Below are positions 1 through 29,492 of a stretch of DNA of 56,557 nucleotides, piece by piece. The number at the start of each line of letters is the position of its first letter. The stretch's first letter is position 1. The notes beneath the pieces were generated by a model. That model was given only the letters and a program-made list of their open reading frames with translations, had not been told where the DNA came from and ran no database searches. The position numbers were made by a program, and so were the translations under genes. The DNA is from Paraglomus brasilianum. Taxonomy: Eukaryota. The stretch spans positions 1 to 56,557 of the forward strand of contig CAJVPI010000090.1 of the NCBI GenBank assembly GCA_910592345.1. Reading direction: 5' to 3'.

Positions 1-1
1 T

Positions 2-955
2 TACAACAAAAATACGAAATTAGCAGAACAACAGAGAAAATTGGTAGATGAGCATTTTATAACAAGAGGTAAAGCTGGTTATTGTAGTGTTGATGCTACT
101 GCTCATTACAGTTACGATTGAGCGCAAAATGTTCACGTGCCCCATTCCGATCAACAGGTAAGTAAGATTTATTATCTCAGTCCGCGTAAAGTACATTTAT
201 TTGGTATACAAGATGAAGCAGTACGCGAACAAATTAACTACGTTCTTGATGAAGACGAAATTATCGGCAAAGGTCCTAACGGCACACTGAGCATGGTATT
301 CGATGGGATTAAGCGATTGAATAAAGGTGAAAAATATTTAAAGATTACTTGTGATAACGCGGGTGGACAGAATAAAAATAATGCGACCATTTGATTTTAC
401 TTATATTTAGTAATTTGCGGTTATTATGAAAGTATCGAATTAAATTTCATGGTACCTGGACATACTAAATTCAAGTGTGATGGTAGTTTCGGATTAATTA
501 AAAAACTTTATCGAAAAACAACGGTAGATTGTGTAAAACATATTGTTGAGGTTGTGAAAAAATCGAGTACAGCTGGATTAAATAAAGCTCAGTGTTATGA
601 CAGTGGAGAAGGCTTTCAATACTTAGATCTTAATTCGGTATTGGGAATTTTCTTTAAAAAATTGAATGGTTTGCAAAAATATCAGCATTTTGTATTTGAA
701 GCAGCTAATCTTGGAATTGTCAAAGCTCAGTTGGTTGCTAATGGTGCTTTTACCGAATTTAATTTGTTAAAAACGATAAAAGCAAACGTTTCTGAAATTA
801 CCAAAGAAATTAAATCCTTTTCCATCTTAGTACTAACCCCTCCTCCTTTGGATTACAAAAGACAGGAGTATCTTTACCAAAACATTCGTGCATTTGTCAG
901 AGATGAGTTTAAAGACATTACTTGTCCAAGACCAACCTATACTGGCAGTGAATAA
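2..955 (+). CDS. Sola-like DDD transposase (DUF7869-type), 5'-truncated by the window edge; continuous only if TGA=Trp
   Basis: One frame from nt 2 to TAA at 953-955 with only two TGA (119-121 in YD[W]AQN, 392-394 in NATI[W]FYLYL). This joins track ORFs 137..394 and 449..955. Motifs DWAQN..P..YYLSPRK..LFGI, DNAGGQNKN and PGHTKFKCDGSFGLIK match Sola-type transposases. Confidence 0.75.
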
Positions 956-1123
956 AATATTTAAACTAAATGCTCTCTGTCTAAACTTTTACCAAATGTT
1001 GCTAGATTCACCCATGTTTAATTTTTAAAGCCTAAATAAAAAATATTAAAATAACTATATACTTAATATTTCTCATAAAAAGGATAAAAGTATATTAAAA
1101 AAATAAATAAAAATAAATAAAAA

Positions 1124-1918
1124 ATGGTAAACACAGAACTCCAAGAAAATAATAAGAAACTATTAGAAGAAAACCAACAATTAAGGATAATTGCTCGTGA
1201 TAGTCGGGCTACAATATTTGAAAGAAAAATTGAAAATGAAAACTATGTTCTTAAAATTGCTGAATTGAAGAATTATAAAGAGCAGGTCGAAGGCTTAAAA
1301 AGAAAAACAGTAGAACTTTTATCGTTTTGACATAAGGAAGAAACTCGAAAAGAAAAAAACAATTGAGGCAGTTGACGTGAAAAGGGGCAATGGGATTTCT
1401 GGCATGAAGAAGAATTAAAAGGATTAATGAGCAGAACAGAAGAAGAACTAAATGAGGTTATTTTTGCAGTTATCAAAAAATTGGAAGACGATGTTAAAGA
1501 CCGCACTGAGTCATTAGAGGCGAGTGGAGAATGAAAAAAATATCAAGCAGAAGATATAAAAGAAAAAAACAGGAAACTCAAAAGTGCTAGTGAAAAAATT
1601 TCTTATCTAGAAGCCCGAGTTGAAATTTTAGAAGAAGAGTCAAGTCAAAAGAGCAAAAGGATAGAAAAGCTAAGTAAGCAATTATCTGATAGTGAATCAC
1701 AAAATGAAAGTTTAAAGAGTTTACACTATTTAAACAGCAAACCTTTGCCTGCTTTACCTGTTGAAGAAGAAAGTAAATCATCCTCAATTAAATGGAGCAT
1801 GTTTAAACAATTAAAAACAAAAACAAAGGTTAAGATTCAAAAATTACTAAGTCTAGTCAAAAAGGAAAAATTTCACAACCAAGAAATGATTGCTCAAGTA
1901 GAAGTTAAGTCTAAATAA
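1124..1918 (+). CDS. 264-aa K/E-rich coiled-coil hypothetical protein in genetic code 4 (Mollicutes-like)
   Basis: ATG 1124 to TAA 1916-1918 with 4 in-frame TGA, 3 TGG and no TAA/TAG. Intronless, very A-rich, ends IAQVEVKSK. Confidence 0.75.
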
Positions 1919-1931
1919 ACGAGAAATTGTA

Positions 1932-2561
1932 ATGATAATGAGAGAACTGGAATACACAGTTTTAGAATTGGAGAAAGAAAGTAAAAAAACTTGTGATTTT
2001 TGCTCTAAATTTGAAAACAAAAATAACAAGTCTGTTCATCAAATAAGAGTCCGTAGCAAAGTAACTGGGGAATGAATTTCAGATGACATGGTTTGTGAAA
2101 GATGTGAAGAAAAATATTGGAATGATGAATTGTTAAAATGTAATAGATGTGGTAGATTGCAAACTAAGTTAGATTTTGATATTGTTACTGGTAAGAATAT
2201 TTGCTACTGTATTAGAAACAATGAAGTCTTGGAAGAAAAAGAGCTCCCCCTCTTACCTAATGAAGAAATAAGCCAATCTACCTTTTATGAACGACAAATA
2301 AATAAACTACAAGAAGAAAAAGCTGCAGCTGAGGAAGCACTAGAAATTGAAAGAGAAGAAGTAGCCAAATTTCAAGAAAAGTCTGAAGAGTGAAGTAAAA
2401 GACAGAAGCAAGAGTTATTGGATAAGATAAAGAGTTTAGAAGAAAAGATTAAACAATTAGAAGAGGAAAACAATTTATTGAAAGGGCAACAGAATGTTCA
2501 AATTGCTCAAATTGAAGTTAAAGAAAATAAGAGATGATCTTGATTGAAAATAAAAAAGTAA
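1932..2561 (+). CDS. 209-aa CxxC zinc-binding plus coiled-coil hypothetical protein in genetic code 4
   Basis: ATG 1932 to TAA 2559-2561 with 4 in-frame TGA. Contains CDFC, CERC, CNRC and CYC motifs. Starts 13 nt after the previous stop; C-terminal IAQIEVKE resembles the previous ORF's end. Confidence 0.75.
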
Positions 2562-2694
2562 TTTGAAGACATTTTCTATTCATTTAAATTAAAACTGTTT
2601 CAATAGTCAATACAAATAATATTTGTTTTTCTTTAGTATTAGATAATTAAACACCTGATTTTTATTGATAATTATTAAAGAAATAGATATTGCT

Positions 2695-2952
2695 TTATGT
2701 TTCTAATTTTCGTTTCTTTCTTGGTTCATCATAAGTTGGTGGTAATGTTCGTTTAATGGTTTTTATTTTTCGTTCTTCTTGATAAATTTCATAAGTAATC
2801 TTTTCTTTATCTAGATATTCCTGGAGTGTTTGGGTATCATTGATTTTAAAAACATAGGGAGCAATTTTTTCTCCTTGAGCTTTTTTCAGAATGCTTCTAA
2901 TAGTGCTGTAATTTTTGGGTTCCATAGTGGATTTAATGTAAATTAGTTTCAT
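2695..2952 (-). CDS. 85-aa basic hypothetical protein (MKLIYIKSTM...) carried near the transposon end, copy A
   Basis: Track ORF. Near-identical copy at 6796 and a decayed copy near 9290-9460; ends in an NLS-like PRKKRK. Confidence 0.55.
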   Translation of the reverse strand: MKLIYIKSTMEPKNYSTIRSILKKAQGEKIAPYVFKINDTQTLQEYLDKEKITYEIYQEERKIKTIKRTLPPTYDEPRKKRKLET

Positions 2953-3163
2953 ATTATAATTTTATATAGAGGTAATCCTATATTAATCCTGTTATGGTTT
3001 ATATTTATCACATTCTGGTATGATAAAGTGAACATTAAATTAACAGGTCCATAAGTTATGAATGAGCACCATTATTTACTTTTCAAAATGTCATCAGTCA
3101 CACTGGTCAATTTTACAGCCACATCATAAGCAGCCTCTCATTTATGTCACATAATAGAATGTT

Positions 3164-3194
3164 CACTTTGTCTGGTTTTGTTGCAGTCTGCCCC
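3164..3194. repeat. Putative transposon terminus CACTTTGTCTGGTTTTGTTGCAGTCTGCCCC, copy A
   Basis: Same motif at 6930-6959, 9666-9696 and 29462-29492, each followed by ATAT or AAAT and then unrelated sequence. Confidence 0.8.
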
Positions 3195-3240
3195 ATATTA
3201 GCATTTCAGAAATTCTTGAAATAGATTCTATACCATAAAA

Positions 3241-5456
3241 TTAATAGAGCTTACCCTTCAGATATTGATGTTTTAATTGGCACAATTGGGATGTTTCTGG
3301 GAGAGTGACTTCAACATCTGGAAGGCTGCATGAAATGCTAGCTCCTCTAAGAAGTTCCTTCAATTTGATTTTCTTATTGCCTGCTAAGCAGAAAAGATTG
3401 AGGCGCAGTGCCCAGAATTGAGCATTAAAATCTTCCCACTGCCGCCAATGCATTGGCTCTTCATAGTTGAGCATCTCTTGCCAAAAGATCATCTCATGTT
3501 CATTGGAGTTGCGAACAAGTGCACTTGTCCATATGTAAGGTATTTGGATTTGGTATTCCTTACTTGTTGTGTTATACAGGACTAGATTAAGTATCCCCCT
3601 TGAACTAAGCTCCTCATAGGTGGTAAATTCCTTGCCAACATTGATTGAATCAGTTTTTAGAACTGGCAAGCCCAATATGGCTTTTGCAAGAGTTTTGGTC
3701 AACCAATTTGAGTAATGGGTTAACTTGTAGTCATCCAGGAGCTGGATTTTGATGGCATTCATGATTTCTGAGAGATCAATATCATAAGGATTTCTCAATA
3801 TACCCAAAAGAAGGTGAAGTCATTCATAGAAATATTCCAAGGTTCTAACATGACCTCCAATATCTCCAATGCAAAGTTGATAATACTCATTGAGATGGGC
3901 ATAGTTTTCATCAAGTTTGATGGCTTTGCCAATTTTGATTGCATCTTTATTCTCAAGGAGAGGTAATGGGAGACGAAGTGATTTGTGCATAGACTCTGTA
4001 ATATAATGCTCCAAGGGTCCTTCAATTGTTCCAGCCAGAATAGGAATTAAAAAAATATTTGGAGGTGATGCACACAGTGTTCCTCCAATGGTGTTTATGA
4101 GTTTCTTACATGCCTCCTTGCTCAAGGCATGCAATTTGTTAAACTCATCGATGTCAATAACTACAACCAGCAGACCAGGAGCTTCATTAGAAGTTGTTAC
4201 TTGTTCCTTGATATCAGCATAGATAACCTCAAGGGCTGTGTCCAGAGTAAGTTTTGAAATGTCTCCAATCTGGCAGACACCACGGAATTTGGTAAAAGTG
4301 TAATTATCCCCAGTTTTATACTGAGGTCGGAAGTACTCAAATAGAATACATAGCACAAAAGATGACAGGGCACCAAGTTGCATATCTATATCATCAGCTG
4401 GGGATCCATTTCCATAGGTGGTGTTAATAACAATCATATTCTTGAAAGCATTTTTGAATTCATCATTAGAGCTGTTGGCACGTTGCAAGAGCATCTTCTC
4501 AATCTCATCAAGAAATCTGCTTTTCCCTGTTCCAGGCCCACCAGCCAAGACAGGGATGGGATGAAGTTTCTTATCACCTTCCTTGCGGCATTTAAATCTG
4601 TCCTGGACTCCGTTTCGGGCCAATATTGGGTCACCATCCCAGAGGGTGCCAATAGTGGTTTCTCGTCCACAGAGCTCAAAGATTTTACCGAAGGATTTAA
4701 CAAGCTGAAAAAATCAATTAGGCTTTGGCTGAAGAAGCTAAAATGTACAATCAAAAAATTAACAAAGCGGAGAAAAGACGCACACGGTTCCGGCCACGAT
4801 TAAAATCGAATCTTCGCATCCAGTTATACACCGAGCCACTATTGTTCCAGTTAGGTGCTAAAGTCAATGGATAAAAGATTAAACGGGGATGAGCAATTAG
4901 AAATGACGAACATGATCCGGCATCATAAATAAAAATGTCACTCACCAGTAGTGCCAGCTGGAAGGACAGAAGGTGATTAACGGGACGGGAGGCAAATGAG
5001 CGAGAAACGTCGATTTGGTATGGTTGGTAGTGGGAAAGCGGATAGATGATATGGATGGAATCGCAACGAGTACGGATAGATGGAATGAATAAATGGCGCA
5101 GTTACGAATATCCAAAGTGCAGTCGAAGTGACAAACGTTGTGACAGAGAGGAATGCGGAGGCGGACAAGATCCAGCACCATAAATAAAAATATAACTCGT
5201 GAAAATATTCGGAATGCAGTCATGGTATTTACACCCTTAACTCTCTTCTATGTATGAAACCCATATTGCTACGTCTACTCTACCCTAAGTACACACTACT
5301 CTACGTCCCCAATGCCCGAGTCACAAAGTCGTTACCTGCAGAACCTTGTTGGAGGCGGAGCTTCTCCAATTCCAACTTTTTCTGCTCGAGCTCCAACAGA
5401 CGATCAAGGTTTTCTTGAGTTTGTAAATCTTGGGGAAGTTTCTTGAAATCTTCCAT
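3241..5456 (-). pseudogene. Crinkler-like P-loop NTPase gene, spliced, frameshifted and cut off by the transposon end
   Basis: Walker A GGPGTGKS and Walker B-like VIDIDEFN in ORF 3820..4623. The reading frame shifts between 4434..4754, 3820..4623 and 3241..3807. Upstream coiled-coil exon from ATG 5456 (MEDFKKLPQDLQ...) ends in CAG|GTAACG. Confidence 0.65.
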
Positions 5457-6283: not shown

Positions 6284-6796
6284 TCAAAATTGTAAACATG
6301 CATCATAACCATGGACTTGAAATTTGCCGATCAAATCTAATGATTTATTCGTGTTTCCTTTTTTATACTTACCCATTGTTTCTAAAACGATACAGGTTTT
6401 GCTGATCATGAATCGTGTCGGATTTGTAGTACTTGGGCACAGCGAACCAAAATTATGTATTGTTGCTATTCTTACTCGAACAGTATATAAAGAATTATGG
6501 AAAATTGTCCCGTTATCGATAATAAAGAAACAGATATTTGCTTTATGTTCTAGCTTTCGTTTCTTATTCTTTCTTGGTTCATCATAAGATTCTCGTTTAA
6601 TGGCTTTTATTTTTCGTTCTTCTTGGTAAATTTCATAAGTAATTTTTTCTTTATCTAGATAGTCCTGGAGAGTTTGGGTATTATTGATTTTAAAAATGTA
6701 GGGAGCAATTTTTTCTCCTTGAGCTTTCTTAAGAATGCTTCTAATGGTGCCGTAATTCTTTGGTTCCATAGTGGATTTGATGTAAATTAGTTTCAT
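6284..6796 (-). CDS. MKLIYIKSTM protein copy B, C-terminally extended by a 1-nt difference at the stop
   Basis: First ~80 aa nearly identical to 2695..2952. GAA ACA TAA in copy A reads GAA CAT AAA here. Confidence 0.45.
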   Translation of the reverse strand: MKLIYIKSTMEPKNYGTIRSILKKAQGEKIAPYIFKINNTQTLQDYLDKEKITYEIYQEERKIKAIKRESYDEPRKNKKRKLEHKANICFFIIDNGTIFHNSLYTVRVRIATIHNFGSLCPSTTNPTRFMISKTCIVLETMGKYKKGNTNKSLDLIGKFQVHGYDACLQF

Positions 6797-6929
6797 ATAT
6801 TTTATTTTTATATAGAGATAATCCTATATTCAGCATATTGTAATTCAGGTAGAAGTTTACTCAATAAAGTTATATTTTGGTATGATATAAGTTTGTATAT
6901 ACTAATAATAAGATACAGCTTTGAGGAAT

Positions 6930-6959
6930 CACTTTGTCTGGTTTTGTTGCAGCATGCCC
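6930..6959. repeat. Putative transposon terminus, copy B
   Basis: cactttgtctggttttgttgcagcatgccc followed by atat. Confidence 0.75.
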
Positions 6960-7308
6960 ATATGAGAATGGCATCACACGCAAGAAAAATAATGACATTT
7001 TGCTAATCAGAATGATCAAGTTATTTCTTTGCTCTCTCATGTTTACGGAAAATCTATAGCTAATTTGTTTCTATTGCTAATATCTCTAACACAAGATTCT
7101 CATCCCTATACTCTTCTTCTACACTAGATTTTCGAAATAAACAGAATTTTTGTCTATCTATATCACATGAATTATTATTATGTAGAAAGTATCGACTTTA
7201 GCTAAGTTTCGCGAACATATATGAAGAATCAAAAAAGAGGTATTCACAATCACCAGCACACTTCATTTTTATAATATTCCACACCGTCTCATAACCAATA
7301 AGTTTGTG

Positions 7309-7950
7309 GGCAAAGGTCCTAATGGCACACTGAGCATGGTATTCAATGGAATAAGAGATTGAATAAAGGTGGGAAAACATTTAAAGATTACCTGCGATAA
7401 CGCTGGTGGTCAGAATAAAAATAATGCTACCATTTGATTTTACCTATATAGTAATTTGCAGTTATTATGAAAGTATTGAATTAAATTTTATGGTGCCTGG
7501 ACATACTAAATTCAAGTGTAATGATAGTTTTGGATTGATTAAAAAACTCTATAGGTAGATTGTATGAATCATATTGTTAAGTTGTGAAAAGATCAAGTAC
7601 AGTGGGATTAATAAAGGTTAGTGTTATGATAATGGAAAAGGTTTTCAATACTTGGATCTTAATTCTGTGTTGGGAATTTTCTTTAAAAAATTGAGTGGTT
7701 TACAAAAGTATCAGCATTTTTGAAGCAGCCAATCCTGGAGTTGTCAAAGCTCAAATGGTTGCTAATGGTACTCGTACAGAATTTAATTTGTTGAAACTAG
7801 AAAATCAAGTGTTTCTGAAATTACCAAAGAAATAAATCCTTTTCCATAACTCCTTCTCCTTTGGATTACAAAAGGCAAGAGCATCTTTATCATGATATTC
7901 GTCCATTTGTTAGAGACGAGTTTAAAGGCATTACTTGTCCCAAACCAATA
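7309..7950 (+). pseudogene. Decayed second copy of the Sola-like transposase
   Basis: Colinear with ~267-935 at high nucleotide similarity but with several deletions and frameshifts. Keeps the same in-frame TGA in gctaccatt-tga-ttttac. Confidence 0.85.
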
Positions 7951-8108
7951 TTGGATAATTTTATATTAAATAAAAATTGCTAAATGCTTTTAGTTAAATT
8001 TTTTCTCTTGATTTAATTATTACAATTATTACAATTATTAAAATAATTAGAAGATCTAACAGTAATCCGCAGCCAAACACTCAGTAATTTTTCTTTCTCA
8101 TACTTTTA

Positions 8109-9170
8109 TTAAGTTGGTTTTCTAATTCAACCTTCGATAATAAGCATCAGTTTTTCCGCAATTTTTTCGTTTTCCATTGAATCTCTTATTTCCCTTTTTT
8201 CGCTTTCTCCTCGGCTTCGGCGCCTGTCTTGTTCAAATTTAGGATGGAGAGTTCGTAAACAGCTCTTTGAGAACAAACTTCTCCATATTTTTTCAATTTC
8301 AAACATCTCGGCTGCCTAGTCATCGAAATCATATAGCCATCGCAACTTAGTTTTTTGCTTCTCTTGCATTACTTTTCCTATTTGAGCTCAGGTTTCAAGA
8401 TCGATAGCATTTATGTCTTTTGGTAAGCGATTTTTCGTTTCAATAACTGTATAACCTTTTGCTATATCTCTGCGAAGTCTATCTAGCAAAGACTTTGTTG
8501 GGTTCAATATAAATACCTTCTGTATTGGCCCCCAAAACTTTGCTTACCTGTTTTTGTTCTTCAGTGCTTATTTTCTTGGAACTTTTAGTAGTTGAGTAAG
8601 TTCCCTCGTTAACCATGTATTTAGGAACAATTCGGCAATAAAAATGATTTGTTTTGAAGACCAAACCTCCTACCGGAATGCCGATTCGAAAACCGGGAGG
8701 AGAATATACTCTATTTATTTCAGCAATGTTATCATTTAAAACAGGTAACATATCGTTTCATTCTCTTTGGCTTAAATCTTTATTGCGCTTTTTGGTAACA
8801 AGTACACAATGTCCCTTAGATCTAATTTTGGAGTAAGTAAAAACACTATTTTCTAAGTCAGTCACTAAGGTTTTGAGTAGCGATTTTCCATCATCAGCTT
8901 TATCACTTAAGACTTTTACGATATCACACATTACACGTGCAAGCTGTGCATTAGGATTGTGTTGACCAGAACACCATTCTGTCAAGTGAAATGTTTTTCT
9001 ATTTCTTTTGCAGCTCTTTTTCCATAATCCGCACAATAACTGCACTTATGGATTTTGGTTTCTGACAATACTCCACATTGAGAACATAAAAATGTTCTCG
9101 GTCTCAGCGGCTCATGCCGCGTGTTTCAAAATCGCTATTTTCATAATTAAATCTTGCCCTTAAATTGTTG
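8109..9170 (-). pseudogene. Decaying code-4 cargo gene with an N-terminal CSQC..CSYC motif
   Basis: Track ORFs 8758..9045 and 8479..8751 join in frame through TGA (SQRE[W]NDMLPV). Further TGA=Trp occur downstream, plus frameshifts and one TAG. Confidence 0.55.
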
Positions 9171-9665
9171 CAGTAAAAGTATTTGTAAAGAAAAGAATTA
9201 TTATTATTGTTATCTTAAAATGATTTTGCCAAAAAAAATTTTACGATTGTAAGTCCACTCAACAAACGACTGTTGGATTTGTTTCTTCAAGTTTTCGTTT
9301 CTTTTATTAGTTATGATTTTTCGTTCTTCTTGATAAATTTCATATAGTAATTTTTCTTTATCTAGATATTATTTGAGAGTTTGGGTATCATTGATTTTTT
9401 TTTAAAATACTTCTAATTGTACTGTAATTCATGGTGGACTTAATGTAAATTAGTTTTATATTAATATCTGCAAGCAAAACGTTTATCTCAACCAAGTTTA
9501 CAATTTGATACCAAGTTAATACAGATTTTAAAATGCAAATAAATTTATTCATGATGAATTCTGACATGGCCATAGCTGTTACTGTGCCACGAATAATAAT
9601 AAATCAAAGCTAATCAGTCATTCTAGCCAATTTTTCAGCCACACTAGCTCACATAATAGAATGTT

Positions 9666-9696
9666 CACTTTGTCTGATTTTGTTGCAGTCTGCCCC
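9666..9696. repeat. Putative transposon terminus, copy C
   Basis: One mismatch to copy A, with the shared subterminal tcacataatagaatgtt; followed by atat. Confidence 0.8.
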
Positions 9697-10794
9697 ATAT
9701 TATTTCTCTGGTCACCATTATTGAAACAATTACGCTTTTTCCAACTAGATAAACATTGGAAAGAAATTTCTTTAACGCATAATAATAAACTATCACAACC
9801 ACAATTAAAACATCTTAAATTTTATATTTAAATAGTTTCCTCCCTGAGTATTGTTTCTCTTCTATGGTTGGTGAGCTAGTACGCTTTGATCAGCTTGGGT
9901 CCATATGGTTTCTAATTACACGTTCATGAATTTGTTTGCAGAAATTTACCGGAAAGAAAGATCTTGTTCGACCGACTATCAATACTAAATTCCCCATTTT
10001 TAGTATTAGCATACAATTTTTAACATTCAATATTAATATGCATTTTCCCATATACCATTCTAATCCCTATAGGCTTCAAATTTTAACTATCCATGCTTCA
10101 TAAGATTATTATTTCACCAATTTCCACGAGTACTTATTTATTTTTTCTGATACTCGTATGTTTTTGAAGCAATAAGAATTTATTTTTCTATGATTAACTC
10201 ATTGCGAATACTAAGATCGTAAATTTGTCATTGAAAGTGAACTCCTTCAATGACTAATCTGTCTTGTGATTATAAGAATTTGAAATATGAAACCCGCTGA
10301 CCCGTAGAAGACGTCTTTCGGTCATCTTCAGAAATATTCATGTTTGATATTTGAAAAAGAGTGGTTGTTGTCATTGTCAATTATTGAAGTTTATCAGCAT
10401 TGTTAAAGTATCATTAAGGTGACAGCCGCTTTTTGGCTCCTTTCAGATTTCAAAAATTAGATTGTAACTGAAGGATGTTTACAGTTTTGCAGACTTTCTA
10501 CCTTGCACGAAAACACAATAAACGTGAATGTTCCAGAAGCTTCTATTAATTCTAAAGATATTCCCGTAACAAAGTTATCAGAAAGCGAGACACAAACACA
10601 TGCCGTCAAACTTCCATTAAAGAGAATAACAAGCATAAACTTGGAACAGACCGATTGTAAAAACATCAACCCTTGAAATTAGAATCAAAAATTACAAACG
10701 CTGTATATATAGACGAAAACTACTTGAAACAAAGGTAAATAATCAGGTCTGAATTTATTATGTAATGCGCAAATAATGTCGCTTGCTCGTGTTC

Positions 10795-11693
10795 TCATTG
10801 TGACTCATCCTCTTCGAGAATCTGCGGGTTCCGAGCAAATTTTCTTCTCCAGGCGCGCTTCTCCTCCTGCAATAGAAATACAACCAATGTAAGAGACTAG
10901 ATGCTGTTCTTGATTTGATTGAACAGCACGGTAAAGATCAAGACTCTATTACAATACTATTATTCAATTATACATTAATCGATGCTGTCTTATCACTAAA
11001 TTCTATAAGATAGGAACCAAATTCATTTTAATTCTCGCTATCGCTAAAAGACTAATTAATCGTTTTCGATTTTTGTTAAATTACGCTCACTCATGAGTCG
11101 TTCTCGCCTTCATTTGTTATATCCAAACCTCAGATTTTCCATGCAGCACTCCCTTGAATCGTCCAGTGAATTCATAGGTTCCCATTAACGTTCCGATGCC
11201 CACACATGCACCTAGGCTCAGAGGCCAAGAATTTGCTTGATTATGTCATCGAATGTTAAATTAAACAAATCAGTTCTACTGTATTTAATATGAGAGAGAC
11301 ACTGATACACTGCGAAAAAATTCTACCTCTTATTCCCGCTGCTAACCCGGCCGCACAACCTGCAGCCGCACTATTGACCCAATCGTCACTTTTTCGTATG
11401 TTAGCCGTAGTTGCACGTGTTACCGCAAATATCCCACCGATAAGTGCTGATTGTATGGAAAGAAAGGTTAAGGTTATTTATTGCCTGGATTGTTATACTA
11501 ATGCCTTATTTTCTTTACCAAAATGTGCCATTGATCCTCCTGCTTTAGTAAGTACGCCAGACGCTCCTACACCCTCTGTCTGCAGCGAGTTCTGCAGAGC
11601 AGCAACCACGAAACCAATGCCAGCAAAAGCTAAACCCGCTTTTAGTCCATCATTAACTGGATCTTTGGCATGATAGACTTCTTCGGCGGTCAT
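10795..11693 (-). CDS. Complex I accessory subunit NDUFA11/B14.7-like (Tim17/Tim22 family), 4 exons
   Basis: Exons translate to YHAKDPVNDGLKAGLAFAGIGFVVAALQNSL, IGGIFAVTRATTANIRKSDDWVNSAAAGCAAGLAAGIR, a GACVGIG..YEFTG exon and EEKRAWRRKF..*. GT-AG introns; TGA stop at 10795. Confidence 0.8.
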
Positions 11694-11756
11694 AATTGTT
11701 GGTAGAGACAGATATTGATATAACGGTCAAGAAAATGGTTAAATTTGTCAATCATT

Positions 11757-11766
11757 GTCACGTGAT
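11757..11766. promoter_or_regulatory. E-box GTCACGTGAT upstream of the NDUFA11-like gene
   Basis: bHLH-type palindrome ~65 nt upstream of the ATG. A similar CACGTGAC lies at 13605-13612 upstream of spermidine synthase. Confidence 0.35.
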
Positions 11767-13728
11767 TCGTATAATATTTTTTATTTCAAACAATTAATTT
11801 AGCAAGATCGAAGGCCTGACGCTCGTATGTCCGCCATGCTCTTGTCGCTTTTACTAACTAAATGTATATCAATGTCCAGCTTCCAATAGATCTCTCTTTT
11901 CATATGGTACATAGTCAATACATCGGTATGAATTGCCAAACTCGCTATGCTAAGAATGCTAATTACAAATAATAATAAAAGTTTTATTACCCGAGAAAAG
12001 CAAATCAATTATATTTCTTTAGTTAAGGAAGACGTCCTCGTTCCTGAGGCTGAATGGGAAGCTATCCCTGATCAATAACATCGTCAAAACTTTAAATCGA
12101 TAGATTCGTTAAGATAGCTGTAACAATTAAACGCTTGTTCCTAAGAATGAATGCAAAAATTACTATAATTGTATGCGCATATCGAATACGCAATGTCGAT
12201 TATTACTTTATCCGCTCGTAGTTCTTGCCGGATATTGAAATGCCCCATAAGTTTATTATTATTATTATCCTGTTTAACCGATATTTCCGTTCTAAGCAGT
12301 GATTCATTTCCGACATTTTAAATTCCCATAATCTGTCTTGCTTCCCAGTGCTAGATTTATTGAAATATTTATATACACTTGATTGTTGCCTGATCAAATT
12401 ACTGATCTTGTATTATGTTTAACATTAATAACAACATGCTTGCGTCACACATAAAAACCAGTCCTTTATGACCTGATGGATTATGATCTAATTTAACATT
12501 TGAGCAAAATCCTACCAATTATAATTTACCTGATGTATGATGTCGAGTCAACAATCGCGGGAGAGCAATCGATCGCTGACTTTGGGATTTAGCTATTTCC
12601 AAACGGAGCGGTAGCTTCTCCTAAAGACAGTTAGTGGCCGCTTTACTACTCACGACCTGATGTCGATCGGTAGGCACTAATCCTAGACGGTTATTCGACC
12701 TCGAGTTGGTCGACTATTCGAAGCCTATAGGTTGGGACATGCTTGTATCTATCTAAAACGCGTTTTCACCTAATACTAAGCGAATCCTAACTTTCCCTTT
12801 AATGTTTATTGCGGCACATGCGTGTATAGTATCGCAAAGCATTTGAATCGTTGTATCGTTTCAAAAATCCTGTTAAAAGGGCTCTCCTAAAGTACATAAA
12901 AAAGAGAATCGTCATGCGCACTTCCCAAACTTGGAAGAAGCTGGAGAATTTCTTTTTGTCAGTTCTACAAAAGATCTTATGTTGATATGTTAAGTCAATC
13001 AAAAATTGGTAGTTTATTACATTATAATGTTTATGTATTTAGAATCGTGAATAGATTTAATAAAGAGATTATTACCATTTTCATTATATAATATTACTAA
13101 TGATAAGCATCAAAACTAATATCTTATGACGTATCAGTTGTACATGGCAAACCGATACCTCGGCGTTTTAGTAGAAGTCTATGTTAATAATATACATTCT
13201 CGTTTTGTTTTTGTTTTTTTCGCGCAATATAGTGGTTACTTCTTTGAGTTATATTATCTATACAATTATTTAGTAAGCGTGCTTTAAGTAAATATGTTCA
13301 GCGAATATAGACGCTTATTTGATCCTCGATCTAAGCGCGGAGGTTGTCGGTATTGCACGTTGCTGATCGCTCTGTCTCGAACGTCTTTGGGAGTGTAAAT
13401 AAAATCCCGGTCTTCTCTTAACGATTATCGTTGGTCAGAGACTATTTATCCCAAAGAAATTGCCTATTATACCTCACGTCAGTCTCTTGTTAATGACAGT
13501 AACTATTACTTAGCAATAAACATTGTGAATATGGTTATCAGTCTTATCAGAGGGCTATCTGCATCGTCATACAAGTTTACAAGACATCCATTTGAAAGTT
13601 GGCCCACGTGACAATCATCATGAGGGTTGAAAATTTTTGACGGATTATAACTACATATAATCCGGATTCAGTCATCTCATCTATATATTCATCTTATATG
13701 CGTCGTTTCTTCGATAAATCCTTCCAAG

Positions 13729-15419: not shown

Positions 15420-18400
15420 TCATGGTTCTTCCTTAGGTACTATCAGTTGCCTATATTGCTTAATACTGTCACCTTCAAATTTCCCGACCCTGCCATTCTC
15501 GCACACCCAAATCTCGTTGCAAATCGAATCAATAAATCGCTCGTCATGGGATACAAGGATGACACCGCCCTTGAATTCTTTCAAGGCTGCTATTAGGGCA
15601 TCCATAGAATCCATGTCAAGATGATTTGTCGGCTATTAAATTGGGCAGGAATCGTAATTAGTGAACAAGTATGATAACACAAGATACAACAAAATATTAT
15701 CAATTACCTCGTCCAAAATCAAAATGTGGGGGTTCTGCAATCCTAAACATGCAAATGCTACTCTGCTTTTTTGTCCGCCGGACAATGTGTCCAATCGTTG
15801 TAACGCTGTCATTCCGGTAATGCCGAAACTTCCTAATTGCCTTCTATACTCTTCCTCACTTTTACCTGGCCAAGTTTTAGACATGAAACCGACTGCAGTC
15901 GTGTCTAGATCGAGTTGATCCACATGGTGCTGCATAAACAAAGCGAACCGTAACCGTCCATGACGGTGAACAAATCCTTTGAGAGGCTGAAGCATACCAG
16001 TCAAAAGCTTCAGTAGAGTTGATTTTCCCGCTCCGTTTGGACCAACTACAGCTATGCGTGAATCCAATTGTACCGATAGGTTGACGTCAGACAAAATCAG
16101 ATCTCCCGACTTGTATCCAAATGCGACATCATCTAACTGAAGAATAGGCGGACTAATAGGATCAGGGTTAGGGAATCTGAAAGTCACTGAACTTTCCACT
16201 TCGGGAGGTTCTATCACCGGCAATTTCTCCAACAATTTTAATTTGCTCTGAGCCTGTGGTCCTCTCTTTGCATTATATCTCCAACGATCTATGAAGTCTT
16301 GTAGATGTTGTCTGTATTGCATCTGGGCCTCATACTCACGCTGTTGGTTCTTGCGTCGCTCTTCTTTAGTCGCATAAAACTGCGTAAAATTCCCCCTGTA
16401 GAAATCAACACGTTCAGAATGCTGATGTAAAATATCGGTCGCAACCTCATCAAGAAATTCTCTGTCATGAGACACTACAAGTAGTGTACTTGGCCAATTT
16501 TTTAAATAATGTTCTAACCAGGCAACAGCAGGAATATCCAACATATTTGTAGGCTCGTCTAGTAGTAACAAATCAGGTCGACAGAATAATGCTCGAGCTA
16601 ACGCAAGCCGCATGCGCCAACCTCCAGAGAACGTTTTTGTTGGATCACGTATTCGCTCTTCTGGAAATCCTAACCCGGAGAGTATAGAAGCAGCACGAGA
16701 TTCTGCTTTGTCGCTCTCAATGTCAGCTAATTTCTGATAAACCTCCTGCAACTGCGCATTCGCGTCCTCTTTCTCCTTCTCTATATCTTCTGAAGTTTGG
16801 TTTTCGTCTGGAACCATTTTTTCGAGTTTAGCAAGCATAGTATTTAATCTTTTTTCTTCTCCGAGAAGATGTTCTCTCCAGATATCCGCACTCAATACAG
16901 CTTCAATGGCAAGAGTATCATCGCCAACCATTTCTTGTTCGACATGTAGAATGCTAATGTGAGTCGGGACAGTTAATTCTCGTCTCGAAAGTGTTCTCAG
17001 CAACGTTGAATTATGAGTGACAGTCAAATCTTCCAATAGCACAAGTTGATTGCCATCCACTTGGAATCCATAATAAGGCATGTGACCAATTTCTTCTATC
17101 TGGAAACCCCACATATATTCTGAAGGATGGAATATTTCAAATAAACCTCTATCAAGCGAAATAAGATCATATCGCATAGAAGGTAGTGTAAACAATTCAC
17201 TACCATATATAACACAATGCCAATGACGCTTGTGATCGTTGCAATCATAACAACTCTCTCTATCAGGTTTGTCATTAAGAAGACCACAGAAACTTGCCAA
17301 TCGTTTAATGGATTTTACCACGTCCCAGCTAGAAACAGTCAACTTGACATAGTGTCCAATAGATGAATCCCAACAGCGCAAACTATCGCCATCCACAAGA
17401 CCGGCTAGAAGCGGTTTTCGAACAGTTTCAAGGCAGTCTGTCATTAGAGCATTTGGAATATTCTTATTATGAAGTAAGCCAAGTTCGCTAAGCACCTTTC
17501 TGAACACATTGCACTGACGCTTTCCTGTTCCGCGATCGAAGCTCACATATGTATAAACGTCGTCGGTCGTATGTACACAATTCCATTGCAAGATGGTACA
17601 CGCTTCTTCTACGTAATAAATTAAAGAACGAGTTTCATTTCTAGGGAGCATCAAACAATCTGAACCCTTCAATCCTCTACTTATCCAAAAGCCAATCATC
17701 CAAGCAGTATAAGAGATATATTCAGAGGTCGGATAGCGGCCAGTTATAGATTCCACTATACCAGCTAGTCTGTCTTGTCCTTGAAAATGGACTATCTTTG
17801 GGCGATACATATATGAATATTTTTGCACTTCCGGGCAAACTTTTAAAAAGTCTTCCAGAGCCACTTCCCATATAAAATCCGGCGACAACCTGTTAGATTT
17901 ACGTATTTTCTCCTGGTGAGCAGCCGCTTGCGCTACAAATTTATTCCGGTATAGTTTTCCGGCGCCATATGAAAAATCTTCTTTCCGCGGGACAATTAAA
18001 TTTGTCTTTTGAACATACTCATACCAATGAAGAATCACTCCTGGGTGCGCTGATGCAAAATTTTCGCTCGTGACAATACGGGGTCTTCCCCCAAATTTAA
18101 GTACAAGAATGTGTTTGTCATTACATTCGAACGGCTTGCCTGGACTTCCCAGTTCTGGAATCACTTTATACATAGGTCCTACTCCGCGAGAAAGACTTAG
18201 GACACGCCTCGGCGCGCCATCATTGCCTTGTAGGTTATCGTCGATGAGAATGTCTTCAACTCTTTTAGAGGAACCATCTGACATAAGGAGCTTAGTTCCG
18301 AGCCCAAAACATTTCTGCAAACATTGTATGTATGCAAATTGCGTTGACGGAGCACGTATAAGAAAAAGAGAGGAGGAAAGTTAGTGAATGGTAAGTTGCG

Positions 18401-24735: not shown

Positions 24736-26705
24736 CACTATCTGGACAAAAGTATTAGTCACCCTAACTTTGTTAATTGCTCAAAAATGTACATAATAAT
24801 TGGGACTAACATTTTATATGTTATAGTCTAACTTCTTCTGAATCTATATATAAGACTAATACTTTGTTGGCCAGCCCTTGCTTGCAATACATGCTTTGAC
24901 CCTTCTAGTACTAGGCATACTTTTAGTTAAATTCATTAAAACATTGTTGGGAATTTGGCCCCATTCCTCCTGTAATGCTGTCTCAAGTTCCCTTACATTT
25001 TTAGGCAAAATCGAACGGTTTCTAATAGTAATAGGCCTGTTCAATTCTGTTCCGTTCCAATTTGTGTCAACCCTGATTGGCGGCTTCAAAATCACATGAT
25101 TGGATCGAATCGGCACGAAAAATTTGCAACGTCCATTCGTTCTTATCACACATGCATTTAGGCCTCAATGGCAAACTTCTCTAGCATAGACTGTTTAGAA
25201 AAATTTAGTACACCCTCTACAATGGTGTCTCAGCCCAAGAAGAGGGGGAGACCAAGGAAAACAGTGCCTGAAACTGGGAAAGGACGCGTTCTCTCACCTA
25301 AACAACTGGCCAGAAGACAGGACATAATAATAACTCTGGTGAGATCTTTGTCACCTTTTACAACATGTTTGTGTTTTAATTACCTGTGTTTTCTTCCTGT
25401 CTAGCTCCTCCTCTTCGTCTGAAAGTTCGTCGCGCTCGTTTTATAAAAATGTTGACAAATAAAAGGTCGTATTGCGGAAAACGGTTCTGAGGGCTTTCGG
25501 GAATATGGAGTTTTTGTAAAGAATAACGCTTGAAGTCTTTGAGTGGTGTTAAGACTTACGATTAGCATGACGTATCCCTCCGTGATTTCCGATGAGTTAC
25601 ACCACCATTCCAAGCCAGCTGCGATTCCGTTCACAACCGCTCAAAGAATGTAGGACCAAATAACGAAACAGATTTCGATATATCGGGTCAGTTACACCAG
25701 AAAAGAAACAGATTTTACCCGATGCGGACGAATTTGTTTCCTTTAATTTAATCCTCATGTATTTACTAGTTTTAGAGTATAGGGCAGCGCAGCAGGCGCA
25801 GAACTCGAAATAGATATACAAACAGTCATAATTTCCTTAGCAAACGGTGTCTTCGGTTGAACAGATTCGATTTTGAATCTGATATTATATTCCTTAATAT
25901 TATTAGTTGATCAAATCCGAACTTATATTGTATTCTCTGATCTATATTGTGGAGAACCGATAAAGCTTGAAAACGCTTTCTTGATCGGTGTTTGATAGAA
26001 TCGATCTTGTCCTCGATTTTATCGTCCATTGACAATAAAGATTTATAATTAATTCAGATAGCGCAATTGTTAGAATAGTTTCACAACCTATAGGCTTTCG
26101 ACCTAATCCCGCCGAGAGAAATAGACGCATTTACTCGAGGTTAATTATAAATCCAGAGAAGGCGTACGCAAGAACCGAACCTAGTATCGTGAGCGTTTAA
26201 ACCCAACTTAAAGGTCACCAAACGTCAATAGCGGATTTACCGCAGTATAGAGGTAATCAAGGATCTCGTTGGAAAAAAGCTAAATCCCAATGTCAATATT
26301 CGTTCCGCTCTCCCCCGAGTATTGGCTCGACAGTGGGATATGTGAAACTAAACGTGGAACGGGAACGCGGAATTTTGTCCTCAATTTGCACCGATTTCGA
26401 TACAAATTTGATGTCGAACAGAGCTAATGCGTCTTTCCAGTTCTGACCGTGAATGTTCAATAGGTTCAAATCTGGTGATTGGTTTGGCCAATTAGGTAAA
26501 GTTCTGATCTTCCTTTCTGCAACCCATTCATTAACATCTTTTGCAGTGTGAATGGGTTTTGAAACAAATACCCTTTTTCACCAAAATCTCTACTAATCAA
26601 TGGTAATAAATGGGTTTCAAGTATTTGGATATAATCGAATCTGTCCATTTTTCCTTCCACTTTTACCAATGGGCCTAAGCCTTTGCCAGAAAAACAACCC
26701 CACAT
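24736..26705 (-). mobile_element. Tc1-like transposon remnant (3' half), interrupted by a nested insertion
   Basis: End TA|CACTATCTGGACAAAAGTATT at 24734. Transposase pieces WGCFSGKGLGPL..WPNQSPDLN.IEH (26705-26424, frameshifted) and LETALQEEW..SMP..RVKACIASKGWPTKY* (25026-24856). Confidence 0.85.
25027..26424. mobile_element. Unclassified ~1.4-kb insertion inside the Tc1 transposase
   Basis: CTAAT occurs on both sides (25022-25026, 26424-26428). Short imperfect inverted ends GGCCTGTTC / GAACAGAGC. Deleting the insert restores ELERRI-RNRS. Confidence 0.65.
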
Positions 26706-29090
26706 ATCTTGTTCGGATCTAGAGAGAGCTTGAAACGCCTCACGTAATTCGGTAAACTTTTCTTTTGGAATCTTTTTGTGCAACCACAATTACGGCCTAT
26801 TTCCAAGAAACGCATGGCTTTTTCATATTCAATCAAACCATTATAATTATAATTCTCCATATATGGGTAATCCTATATGTCTTTGCAATTACTTCCGACT
26901 TTCAATAATGAATATGCAAGCATCACTATTTCTATTCAATTTTGCAACATCTCGGTTGATCAAATAAATCTTGCGTTAGTTTTTTATATTCCGTGGTATT
27001 CCAAGCAGGTGCAAACAAGAATGCTGCAACTTGATAACTACAATGATAGTTATGTTCATTTGATGCTAAACTATGAAACCAGTCTTTTTGGTCTCTACAG
27101 CTATTGTAATAATAACTTTTACATAACCTAATTTATAAAGTTATCATAGCTTCAATGCTTCTTATTCTCATCTATGACCAACTTTCTTTTCAGTATTCTC
27201 TTCATCGTGGAATATTACGGTCGGAAATTAAATGGGGGTTTGGGAGAACGATTTATCTTTCGCAAAGGTGTGTTAGTCAACCGAGGGGCCAGGCTTAGCT
27301 CGTACTAGCGCCCTTACTACGATAGTTGTACAATTAAGGCTGAATTAAACCTCAAGTGACCTATTTTAATTATGCGCGCTTTTCACTCCCGTCCGAGTTT
27401 CAAACACTCGTGAATACAAATAAGGGTACCTTCAATAGAACAATAACTATCGCGAGGAACTTTTATTCAATAGAACAATAACAACAATTATTCTATTAAA
27501 GAATCGAAGGGGAATAATATTAAACAGGGCTATCTTCGATTTGTTTGTCGACTAGTCGGTATCCGTCACTTGTCTCACTAAACTAATTAAACAATAATAA
27601 ATAATCGTCTCGATAATTAATTATGAACTCTCGTTCCGTTATTCACGTAATTGGGACAGCTTACTAGCTTGATCAAATCAATGCTCTTCCAGGTGAGCCG
27701 TTTATTGGAGTGTCCGGTCTAATATTAAACTATGTATATTTATAAATAAGGGATTTCCGGGAGAATCCTACTAATATCAGTAGTATTATTTTATTTCACA
27801 ACAATATTCGAACTTGTAAGGAATATGGGCTACTTATATAACTTCGAGCGTTGCGGAAAAAACGCAACGCTCTTTTATCTATTTCTAGAAGAACACTTAA
27901 ATATAGCGTTTTGCAACAATTTTGTTTCCTAATGTAGCGGGCACCCGTTCGTTGCGGATTTTTCGAAACGCTTTTATTACTAAATTAATGCTTTTTGTGA
28001 AATTAGTGTTGATCACGGGTTTGTTTGACTGCGGAGGAAGATTTTATTATGTGACCTACTTATCTGTCGTAAGTAAAGACCGATTTGGAGTGGAAGAGTA
28101 AATTAGATTTAAAATCCCTTGCAATTTTGTTGACACGTTCCTGTCAATGCAACACAAATGGGCTGTGCATTTCTATCTATGGAAACAAATACTAGTACAT
28201 GCATTTACCTCTATAGCCACAAAATGTCGAAAGTTTGACTCAAGTAAGGAATTGTTGGTTATCCATAACAAGCCGTGTAGTTAGGAAAGGCTACTACTGA
28301 CCGATCTCCTGTAATCCTCTGTGAATAATATGTTAGTAAAGTGAATAAATGTGATTGTAGACAGTATTTCATACCAGTGGATCGTTGACATTTTCGACAG
28401 CAGAATGAACATTTTCAATTGTCGTCGCAAAGGTTTCTGCCGTGATACTTATTAATAACCTAGTGACTTTAACCTGCAGTTGATGAAAAGAAGCGCATTA
28501 ATAAAACGCCAATTTATTAGAGCAAGCAAGAAAGCTACAACTTGTGCAACTGATCTTGTAGATTTCTGTTCAGTTCGGTTTATTCCAAAACACGTTGACG
28601 TCGTGAAAAGTAACAATAAACAAATTAATAAGTAGTAAAAGTATAGCTCATAGTTTACACGGAATTGCACACTACCAAAGCAGTACAACGGACATTTCGA
28701 CCATAAGGTAGATAATGCCGTAGTTGTAAGGGTTCCATTTCCCATAGCAGACATTCCGACCATAAGGTAGACAACATTCCGATGTCACCGTAGCTCCTTC
28801 TGCTAACGTAGTGTCAAGAAAACGCTAATAGGAAATTAAGGCACATACTTTGAAATTTTTGTTCAGCTGACGAGCGACTTTTTTCGTTTCTGTCGAACCA
28901 TACTCCACAAAATGCCTTCAGCTTGTAGGATTTCTTCTGAAAAGAAAAGGTAAAATCTGTTGGCTTAGAAAGATGTAGTTTTTAGGTTAAACTTTGTCAA
29001 AATAATCGCTCTACTTGTTTTGTTAATAGGGACGCGCACCAGCACTTTTCGATGCATAATCTGAAGTCACATGACAATTTCAACTATTAA

Positions 29091-29436: not shown

Positions 29437-29492
29437 TCAGCCACACTAGCCATTTTTGATTCACTTTGTCTGGTTTTGTTGCAGTCTGCCCC
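29437..29492. repeat. Solo transposon terminus, copy D
   Basis: Exact 31-nt motif at 29462-29492 plus cagccacactagc shared with copy C; followed by aaat. Confidence 0.8.

What the first reader, a model, noticed from the sequence alone, without database searches (positions are those of the whole stretch)
2..2561. Intact operon-like gene run in UGA=Trp code inside a standard-code fungal contig
Seen: three co-oriented intronless ORFs contain 10 in-frame TGA and no internal TAA/TAG. One TGA falls in the transposase motif YD[W]AQN, and the last two ORFs are 13 nt apart. Host genes in this window use TGA as stop (GCN20, SEC66, NDUFA11-like). Established: Mollicutes-related endobacteria of Glomeromycotina/Endogonales use code 4. 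Inference: recent endobacterium-derived DNA in the host nucleus, untranslatable there without readthrough.
Basis: partly seen in the sequence, partly recalled or inferred. Interest (0 to 1): 0.8.

Follow-up and report, generated by a model that had tools for sequence, protein, structure and literature searches.

The report
Bacterial-code jumping gene in fungal DNA
This is the right-hand part of a cut-and-paste transposon whose genes are written in the mycoplasma genetic code (TGA = tryptophan); it sits among intron-containing fungal genes, its family has many copies in this fungus and in other mycorrhizal fungi, and it likely ferries DNA from the bacteria living inside these fungi into the fungal nucleus.

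Summary
Observation confirmed: three ORFs with 10 in-frame TGA and no TAA/TAG. TGA means Trp: TGA and TGG swap at all five Trp sites of ORF3 in soil relatives, and dN/dS under code 4 is mostly 0.1-0.2. But this is not a one-off slab of endobacterial chromosome. It is the right 3.2 kb of a Sola-like DDD transposon (DUF7869 transposase, two coiled-coil cargo genes, a small Trp-free reverse gene, a terminal repeat ending CTGCCCC, then ATAT). The end abuts a predicted intron branch site of a fungal ATPase gene; three more ends and two transposase remnants lie in the window; the source runs hold many copies. Relatives occur in gene models of five arbuscular mycorrhizal genera, in Ca. Moeniiplasma (51-52%), and as true 2.07-kb insertion sequences with 4-bp ATAT duplications in free-living bacteria. 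Likely the element works in Mollicutes-related endobacteria and lands repeatedly in host nuclei, where it cannot be read. Open: no labelled endobacterial genome holds this exact clade, no read spans the whole element, and the left end lies outside the window.

The parts
2..955 (+). C-terminal 317 aa of a Sola-like DDD transposase (DUF7869), code 4, TGA=Trp at 119 and 392; 5' part lies beyond the window edge
   Evidence: Pfam PF25273 E 4e-17; predicted RNase H-type fold, pLDDT 74, weak matches to IstA, Hermes, integrases; D118 and D160 invariant in 29 rows
1124..1918 (+). Cargo gene 1, coiled-coil protein of 264 aa, 4 TGA + 3 TGG; N-terminal half varies between family members
   Evidence: dN/dS 0.14-0.46 in 20 loci
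1932..2561 (+). Cargo gene 2, 209 aa, Cys-rich N-terminus (CxxC pairs) plus coiled coil, 4 TGA + 1 TGG
   Evidence: dN/dS 0.03-0.39 in 34 of 35 loci, one not computable
2695..2952 (-). Small conserved gene, 85 aa, no Trp codon, predicted ferredoxin-like fold, ends in RKKRKL (resembles a nuclear localisation signal; untested)
   Evidence: found in 17 of 41 soil loci and in two more window copies; model pLDDT 69, only non-significant fold matches
3162..3194 (+). Right terminus of the element (…AAAACC-type terminal repeat, ends GCAGTCTGCCCC)
   Evidence: 4 matches in the window against 0.00 expected; same end in soil loci L001, L015; other copies diverge just behind it
3195..3198 (.). ATAT, presumed 4-bp target site (left duplicate not in the window)
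3195..3254 (-). Predicted 5' part of a host spliceosomal intron (G|GTAAGC donor at 3254, TGCTAAT branch site at 3203-3197) cut by the element
   Evidence: 186 of 112,974 window 70-mers fit this pattern; pattern chosen after seeing it
3241..4623 (-). Host fungal P-loop ATPase gene (6 TGG, one TGA at 3820-3822, likely a nonsense change), target of the insertion
   Evidence: Atlas top three clusters 100% Eukaryota, Basidiomycota/Mucoromycota
6548..6959 (.). Second family copy: small gene (86% identical) and a variant end GCAGCATGCCC followed by ATAT
7231..9696 (.). Third, decayed copy: frameshifted transposase 7231-7950 that keeps TGA at the second Trp, other TGA-containing ORFs on the minus strand (8109-9134), small-gene remnant, end at 9696 followed by ATAT
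   Evidence: contig 9665-12570 joins this end to the Tim17-family host gene with 0 differences in 3 of 4 runs
26600..26830 (-). Broken N-terminal fragment of the same transposase among host DNA
29460..29492 (+). Lone element end followed by AAAT among host DNA

Best explanation
Window 1-3194 is the right part of a Sola-like cut-and-paste transposon whose transposase and cargo genes are written and selected in code 4, likely made into protein inside Mollicutes-related endobacteria, and this young copy sits in a predicted intron of a fungal gene, where it would be untranslatable. Steps: (1, shown) TGA is Trp in this family and the genes are under purifying selection in that code. (2, shown) The genes lie inside a terminal-repeat element with a conserved end, AT-rich 4-bp flanks and exchangeable cargo; free-living bacteria carry the same transposase family as plain insertion sequences. 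(3, well supported, one sample) The copy is joined to nuclear fungal DNA and has many relatives there. (4, inferred) The lineage entered the endobacteria from other bacteria, adopted UGA=Trp and picked up endobacterial cargo. (5, inferred) Transposase-DNA complexes or DNA freed from endobacteria integrate again and again at AWWT sites in host nuclei, in many mycorrhizal genera; most nuclear copies then decay, and some may be moved on in trans by rare copies with TGG at every Trp.
For: TGA/TGG exchange at ORF3 W48 (25/1), W63 (1/25), W154 (23/11), W202 (22/3), W204 (24/1) in 41 soil loci. Of 179 database transposases, 5, 6 and 6 end exactly before each of three conserved Trp, so each site is TGA in some subfamilies and readable in others. 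dN/dS 0.10-0.20 for the transposase in 9 soil loci; private changes among 11 near-identical soil copies 24 synonymous, 33 non-synonymous, 0 nonsense, pN/pS 0.30, neutrality rejected p 1.5e-5. Four TGA per cargo gene rule out leaky readthrough as the source of that selection (inference). Five identical 2.07-kb copies in a Desulfobacterium genome with GG…AAAACC ends and duplications ATAT x3, TTAT, AGAT. Soil locus L001 has the same layout at 89-91%. Exact-match contigs at one depth (3722-4565) lie along 2200-3157 and 4188 on 3171-4032 in X1; cargo and flank depth move together over four runs. Geosiphon gene models lie on 7 scaffolds totalling 3.57 Mb against about 721 kb for its endobacterium (PMC13315312). 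A Gigaspora rosea model on a 248-kb scaffold fuses transposase and both cargo genes in the same order. 0 of 17 mycorrhizal gene models keep both central Trp (3 do not cover both sites). With bacterial IS as outgroup, fungal-associated and Moeniiplasma proteins form one clade, 100/100.
Against: Only 2 of the 120 listed transposase hits are labelled Moeniiplasma and both lie outside the window's clade (51-52% identity); nesting of that clade inside their grade is seen in all 200 bootstrap trees but the AU test does not reject the alternative (p 0.218). No Mollicutes genome was among 58 GTDB loci. No named endobacterial homolog of either cargo gene was found. Pairwise dN/dS among near-identical soil copies of ORF3 was 0.71 (62 non-independent pairs). 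No contig bridges 3194 with 31 letters on both sides (24 inside), and the four runs are one sample, perhaps the assembly's source. Mycorrhizal assemblies are known to contain endobacterial contigs (PMC11423566, PMC10507103), so models on short contigs may not be nuclear. Left end and duplication of the focal copy were not seen.
Confidence: 0.65

Rival explanations
1. A nuclear transposon lineage of endobacterial ancestry that now multiplies inside fungal nuclei by itself, its transposase made by UGA readthrough, recoding, or from master copies with TGG at all Trp sites; cargo hitchhikes.
For: The window's clade (100/99) holds all mycorrhizal gene models and no labelled endobacterial protein. 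Some subfamilies seem to have a single blocking TGA. A 33-member cluster with full-length and broken copies lies on contigs of up to 236 kb (codons unseen). The small gene has no Trp and ends in an NLS-like tract. Many copies in the source runs.
Against: Cargo genes with four TGA each are under recent purifying selection, which nuclear hitchhiking cannot give; genes are intronless and 13 nt apart; TGA contexts are mostly not followed by C; no tRNA gene in the window; host genes end in TGA.
Confidence: 0.17
2. Assembly chimera: endobacterial repeat DNA joined to the end of a fungal contig through the shared terminal repeat.
For: The copy sits at the window edge in a repeat cluster; no contig bridges 3194 by the 31-letter rule; endobacterial contamination of such assemblies is documented (PMC11423566).
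Against: Copy-specific contigs on both sides share depth in four runs spanning a 300-fold range; the join falls exactly at the element end plus ATAT and at an intron branch site; decayed copies and ends lie among host genes, one bridged by a 2.9-kb contig.
Confidence: 0.08
3. One-off recent transfer of a piece of endobacterial chromosome, not transposon-borne.
For: Code 4, operon-like spacing, GC 28-33% against about 39%.
Against: Sharp conserved end, AT-rich 4-bp flanks, four ends in 56 kb, same layout in unrelated soils and in Gigaspora.
Confidence: 0.04
4. The code-4 host is not the endobacterial chromosome but another code-4 replicon (a plasmid or phage of the endobacteria, or an unsampled symbiont).
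For: Labelled endobacterial chromosomes lack the window's clade; soil relatives assemble only as 1-3 kb contigs.
Against: No relative in IMG/VR, PLSDB or PHROGs; short contigs are what repeats give.
Confidence: 0.06

Closest known systems
Sola DNA transposons (Sola1/Sola2; reported in Rhizophagus, PMC5751038)
   Same: DDD-type RNase H transposase with CDNxxGQNKN and GHTK motifs (motif-to-Sola link recalled), short terminal repeats, 4-bp AWWT/AWDT target (PMC3845634, PMC3627910)
   Different: Genes use UGA=Trp, are intronless and operon-like; carries exchangeable coiled-coil cargo and a small reverse gene; nearest outside relatives found are bacterial IS
Unnamed bacterial insertion sequences with DUF7869 transposase (Desulfobacterium, Stappiaceae, Thiomargarita loci L042-L085)
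   Same: 35-40% identical transposase; ends start GG and carry AAAACC at positions 16-21; 4-bp ATAT-type duplication
   Different: The Desulfobacterium element is 2.07 kb, standard code, one gene, no cargo
Gene exchange between Ca. Moeniiplasma (MRE) and Mucoromycota hosts (PMC10507103, PMC13315312)
   Same: Same partners; two Moeniiplasma proteins are homologs
   Different: The passages read describe host-to-bacterium transfer of single genes; here the inferred direction is bacterium-to-nucleus, repeated, transposon-borne, with the bacterial code kept
Endosymbiont DNA in host nuclei (Wolbachia inserts, NUMTs; recalled)
   Same: Symbiont-coded DNA stranded in the nucleus, mostly decaying
   Different: Those are passive repair-mediated inserts; this has defined transposon ends and target preference

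Membership tests
Sola superfamily | DDD catalytic triad in an RNase H fold | tested here: met
   D39, D118, D160 conserved (D118, D160 invariant in 29 rows); model places them at the ends of strands 33-42, 112-117 and before helix 163-171; fold matches weak but to DDE enzymes
Sola superfamily | Terminal inverted repeats at both ends | tested here: inconclusive
   Right end conserved; left end outside the window; shown at both ends only for the bacterial relative
Sola superfamily | 4-bp AWWT target duplication | tested here: inconclusive
   7 of 8 unbiased one-sided flanks are AWWT, the eighth ATGT; true duplication seen only in 5 of 5 bacterial copies
Sola1 versus Sola2 | Placement with Repbase reference transposases | not testable with these tools
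   No Repbase profiles held; Bao et al. 2009 not available
MRE-derived (code 4) DNA | UGA read as Trp | tested here: met
MRE-derived (code 4) DNA | Closest relatives in labelled MRE genomes | tested here: inconclusive
   Moeniiplasma homologs at 51-52%, outside the window's clade; AU p 0.218; none for cargo
MRE-derived (code 4) DNA | MRE present in this fungal sample | not tested
   No MRE marker sequence was in hand to lay on the runs
Nuclear insertion | Physical join to spliceosomal host DNA | tested here: met
   Met for copy 3 (contig 9665-12570, 3 of 4 runs); for the focal copy supported by equal depth and junction anatomy, not by one bridging read
Cas2/VapD-like proteins (small gene) | Ferredoxin-like fold with significant family match | tested here: inconclusive
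   Best Foldseek E 0.06-0.07, best Z 7.5 to unrelated ferredoxin-like domains

The most novel reading that the evidence does not exclude
A shuttle transposon that lives in two genetic codes: it is translated and selected in the endobacterium, carries endobacterial cargo into fungal nuclei with help from its Trp-free, NLS-bearing small protein (readable in both codes), keeps jumping there, and travels between distant mycorrhizal genera when the bacteria switch hosts; a standing DNA pipeline from endosymbiont to nucleus.
Probability: 0.25. Interest if true: 0.92.

Novelty: new variant of a known kind. Interest (0 to 1): 0.72.

Why it matters
The papers I could read describe gene flow mainly from fungus to endobacterium. 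A multi-copy transposon family in the bacterial code inside mycorrhizal fungal genomes would be direct, datable evidence of the reverse flow, would name its vehicle, and would give a marker of past infection in fungi that now lack the bacteria. It also ties Sola-like eukaryotic transposases to a bacterial IS family, explains false gene models in several fungal annotations, and warns that code-4 DNA in these assemblies is not always contamination.

Tried and rejected
No whole genome is held for the window, so copy number could not be counted; summed contig depth is not a copy number. First GTDB scan with the single protein found nothing; the alignment scan gave 58 loci, none from Mollicutes. 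Virus or plasmid origin: nothing in IMG/VR, PLSDB, PHROGs or NCBIfam above cut-off. No RNA holder listed. Sigma-70 and terminator scan: 8 sites against 16 expected, uninformative. No tRNA in the window. Trp matches in database proteins were not used alone, since such proteins may themselves be code-4 translations; DNA codons were used. A-to-I editing rejected: no TAG was seen at any of the five ORF3 Trp columns. CpG depletion (0.63 against 0.93) noted but not diagnostic. The 108-row tree finished only as a quick tree, with 80 protein rows dropped for short cover; the careful tree used 38 chosen rows. ORF3 has no Atlas result. Host genus was not determined; mycorrhizal host is inferred from the relatives.

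Full report
Observation. Table 4 gives three co-oriented ORFs at 2-955, 1124-1918 and 1932-2561 with 2, 4 and 4 in-frame TGA and no internal TAA/TAG; table 11 breaks them up. Ten of their 14 Trp codons are TGA. Shuffles and a decay model do not reproduce this (0 of 500; 0 of 5000). The rest of the window is fungal: intron-containing GCN20, SEC66, spermidine synthase, ClpB, a Tim17-family gene; GCN20 and SEC66 end in TGA. GC is 28-33% over the first 3 kb and about 39% in host regions. No whole genome is held.

TGA is Trp. A scan of metagenome contigs with ORF3 gave 41 loci of 1-3.3 kb. At DNA level TGA and TGG alternate at all five ORF3 Trp columns. Among 179 transposase homologs, 5, 6 and 6 stop exactly before each of three conserved Trp while others read through. 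Under code 4, dN/dS against the window is 0.10-0.20 for the transposase (9 soil loci; 0.33 for the decayed window copy), 0.14-0.46 for ORF2 (20 loci at 60% identity or more) and 0.03-0.39 for ORF3. Among near-identical soil copies, pooled pairs of ORF3 gave 0.71 but private changes over both cargo genes gave 0.30, rejecting neutrality. So the active lineage has recently been translated with UGA=Trp. Four TGA per gene make fungal readthrough an implausible source of this selection (inference).

It is a transposon. ORF1 is DUF7869, with a conserved D-D-D set and a predicted RNase H-type fold whose weak best matches include IstA, Hermes and integrases. Downstream of ORF3 come a small reverse gene (2695-2952) and a conserved end at 3194. 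Soil loci repeat the order transposase, variable cargo, ORF3-like gene, small gene, end; L001 matches at 89-91%. Ends are followed by ATAT, ATAT, ATAT, AAAT in the window, ATGT and ATAT in soil loci, and AAAT twice in loose contig ends. A GTDB scan gave 58 loci in free-living bacteria; one Desulfobacterium genome has five identical 2.07-kb single-gene elements with inverted ends and 4-bp duplications ATAT, ATAT, ATAT, TTAT, AGAT, and its ends share the GG start and AAAACC at positions 16-21 with ours. AWWT targets are described as the mark of Sola1 (PMC3845634, passages) and of Sola2 families (PMC3627910, passages); Sola1 and Sola3 were reported in Rhizophagus (PMC5751038, passages). The link of the CDNxxGQNKN motif to Sola is recalled.

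Is it nuclear? Four runs of one sample hold the stretch; they may be the assembly's source. Depth of unique contigs drifts smoothly along the window and differs 300-fold between runs, as in amplified low-input libraries (inference). Cargo and right flank move together: X1 3722-4565 against 4188; X2 76-124 against 234; X3 59-148 against 78; X4 30 against 12. No contig bridges 3194 by the 31-letter rule, since the end is a high-copy repeat; contig 3171-4032 holds 24 letters of it. Contig 9665-12570 joins the third end to the Tim17-family gene without a difference in 3 of 4 runs. The flank itself reads as a fungal P-loop ATPase gene followed by a GTAAGC donor and a TGCTAAT branch site that overlaps the ATAT, so the element appears to have cut an intron. 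A decayed copy (7231-7950) keeps the same TGA, and further remnants sit at 6548-6959, 26600-26830 and 29460-29492. Transposase and end regions attract hundreds of variant contigs at far higher depth: many copies, number unknown. Substitution alone would close one of the three ORFs with probability 0.92 at 3% divergence, so the focal copy is likely young.

Spread. Of 120 listed transposase hits (149 found), 17 are gene models of Ambispora, Geosiphon, Diversispora and Gigaspora, 2 are Ca. Moeniiplasma, the rest unnamed metagenome proteins. None of the 17 keeps both central Trp; they skip them with apparent false introns or stop there (three do not cover both sites). Geosiphon models lie on scaffolds up to 1.19 Mb, 3.57 Mb in sum, against about 721 kb for its endobacterium (PMC13315312, passages). 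Cargo homologs occur in Funneliformis, Ambispora and Gigaspora models, the last fusing transposase and both cargo genes. Caution: such assemblies can hold endobacterial contigs (PMC11423566, parts 1-2 of 3 read; PMC10507103, passages), and I could not read these flanks.

Tree. With bacterial IS as outgroup, fungal-associated and Moeniiplasma proteins form one clade (100/100); within it a clade (100/99) holds the window and all mycorrhizal models, the window being 0.11 from Ambispora. The group with the Moeniiplasma proteins is not one side of a branch in any of 200 bootstrap trees, but the AU test does not reject it (p 0.218). Direction therefore rests on the code, not on the tree. That MRE use code 4 is established knowledge; PMC10507103 annotates them with the Mycoplasma code.

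Mechanism. Most likely the element transposes in endobacteria, swaps cargo there, and reaches nuclei repeatedly when bacterial DNA or transposase-bound ends are released; nuclear copies are then unreadable and decay. The main rival is onward transposition in the nucleus by readthrough or by all-TGG masters; some subfamilies seem one TGA away. The small gene is readable in both codes and ends in RKKRKL or a similar basic tract in most soil copies that reach the C-terminus; its fold is ferredoxin-like without a significant match; a nuclear role is conjecture.

Novelty. Nine literature searches found no description of a code-4 transposon in fungal nuclear DNA; PMC5982333 (passages) found bacterial genes in Rhizophagus but none from MRE; PMC4455052 (passages) lists the Sola groups. 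Bao 2009, Naito 2015 and Torres-Cortes 2015 were not held; Sun 2019 and the Geosiphon genome papers were not seen, nor any supplements, and could mention such elements. Verdict: real, a new variant of known kinds, interest 0.72.

Noticed in passing
window 15636-18380 (-): GCN20 (ABC-F) carries an intein with Hint and homing-endonuclease domains (PF05203 E 5e-23), inserted just after the lysine of the first Walker A motif. One search for intein plus GCN20 found one unrelated paper; I do not recall this site in fungi.
   Followed up: partly
L044-L047, L080 (6893-8964): An insertion-sequence family with DUF7869 transposase, five identical copies in a Desulfobacterium genome and many in a Stappiaceae genome; no NCBIfam name.
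   Followed up: partly
window 8109-9134 (-): Short TGA-containing ORFs of unknown family forming a different cargo in the decayed third copy; no Pfam, NCBIfam or PHROG match above cut-off.
   Followed up: partly
window 2966-2980 and about 26860: The motif ATATAGGATTACC precedes both the small gene and the transposase N-terminal fragment on their coding strands; possibly a shared promoter or binding site.
   Followed up: no
P0398, P0411: Distant ORF3 relatives on a 156-kb contig end in EIPPKK; ORF2 and ORF3 end in AQ(I)EVK. A C-terminal tag of this kind is recalled from endobacterial proteins and might be an export signal.
   Followed up: no
window 24856-25164 and 26466-26700 (-): Fragments that read like Tc1/mariner transposase (by eye; no Pfam hit); the Sola-like N-terminal fragment runs into one of them.
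   Followed up: no
window 22168-22701: 135-bp tandem repeat inside a low-complexity host ORF.
   Followed up: no
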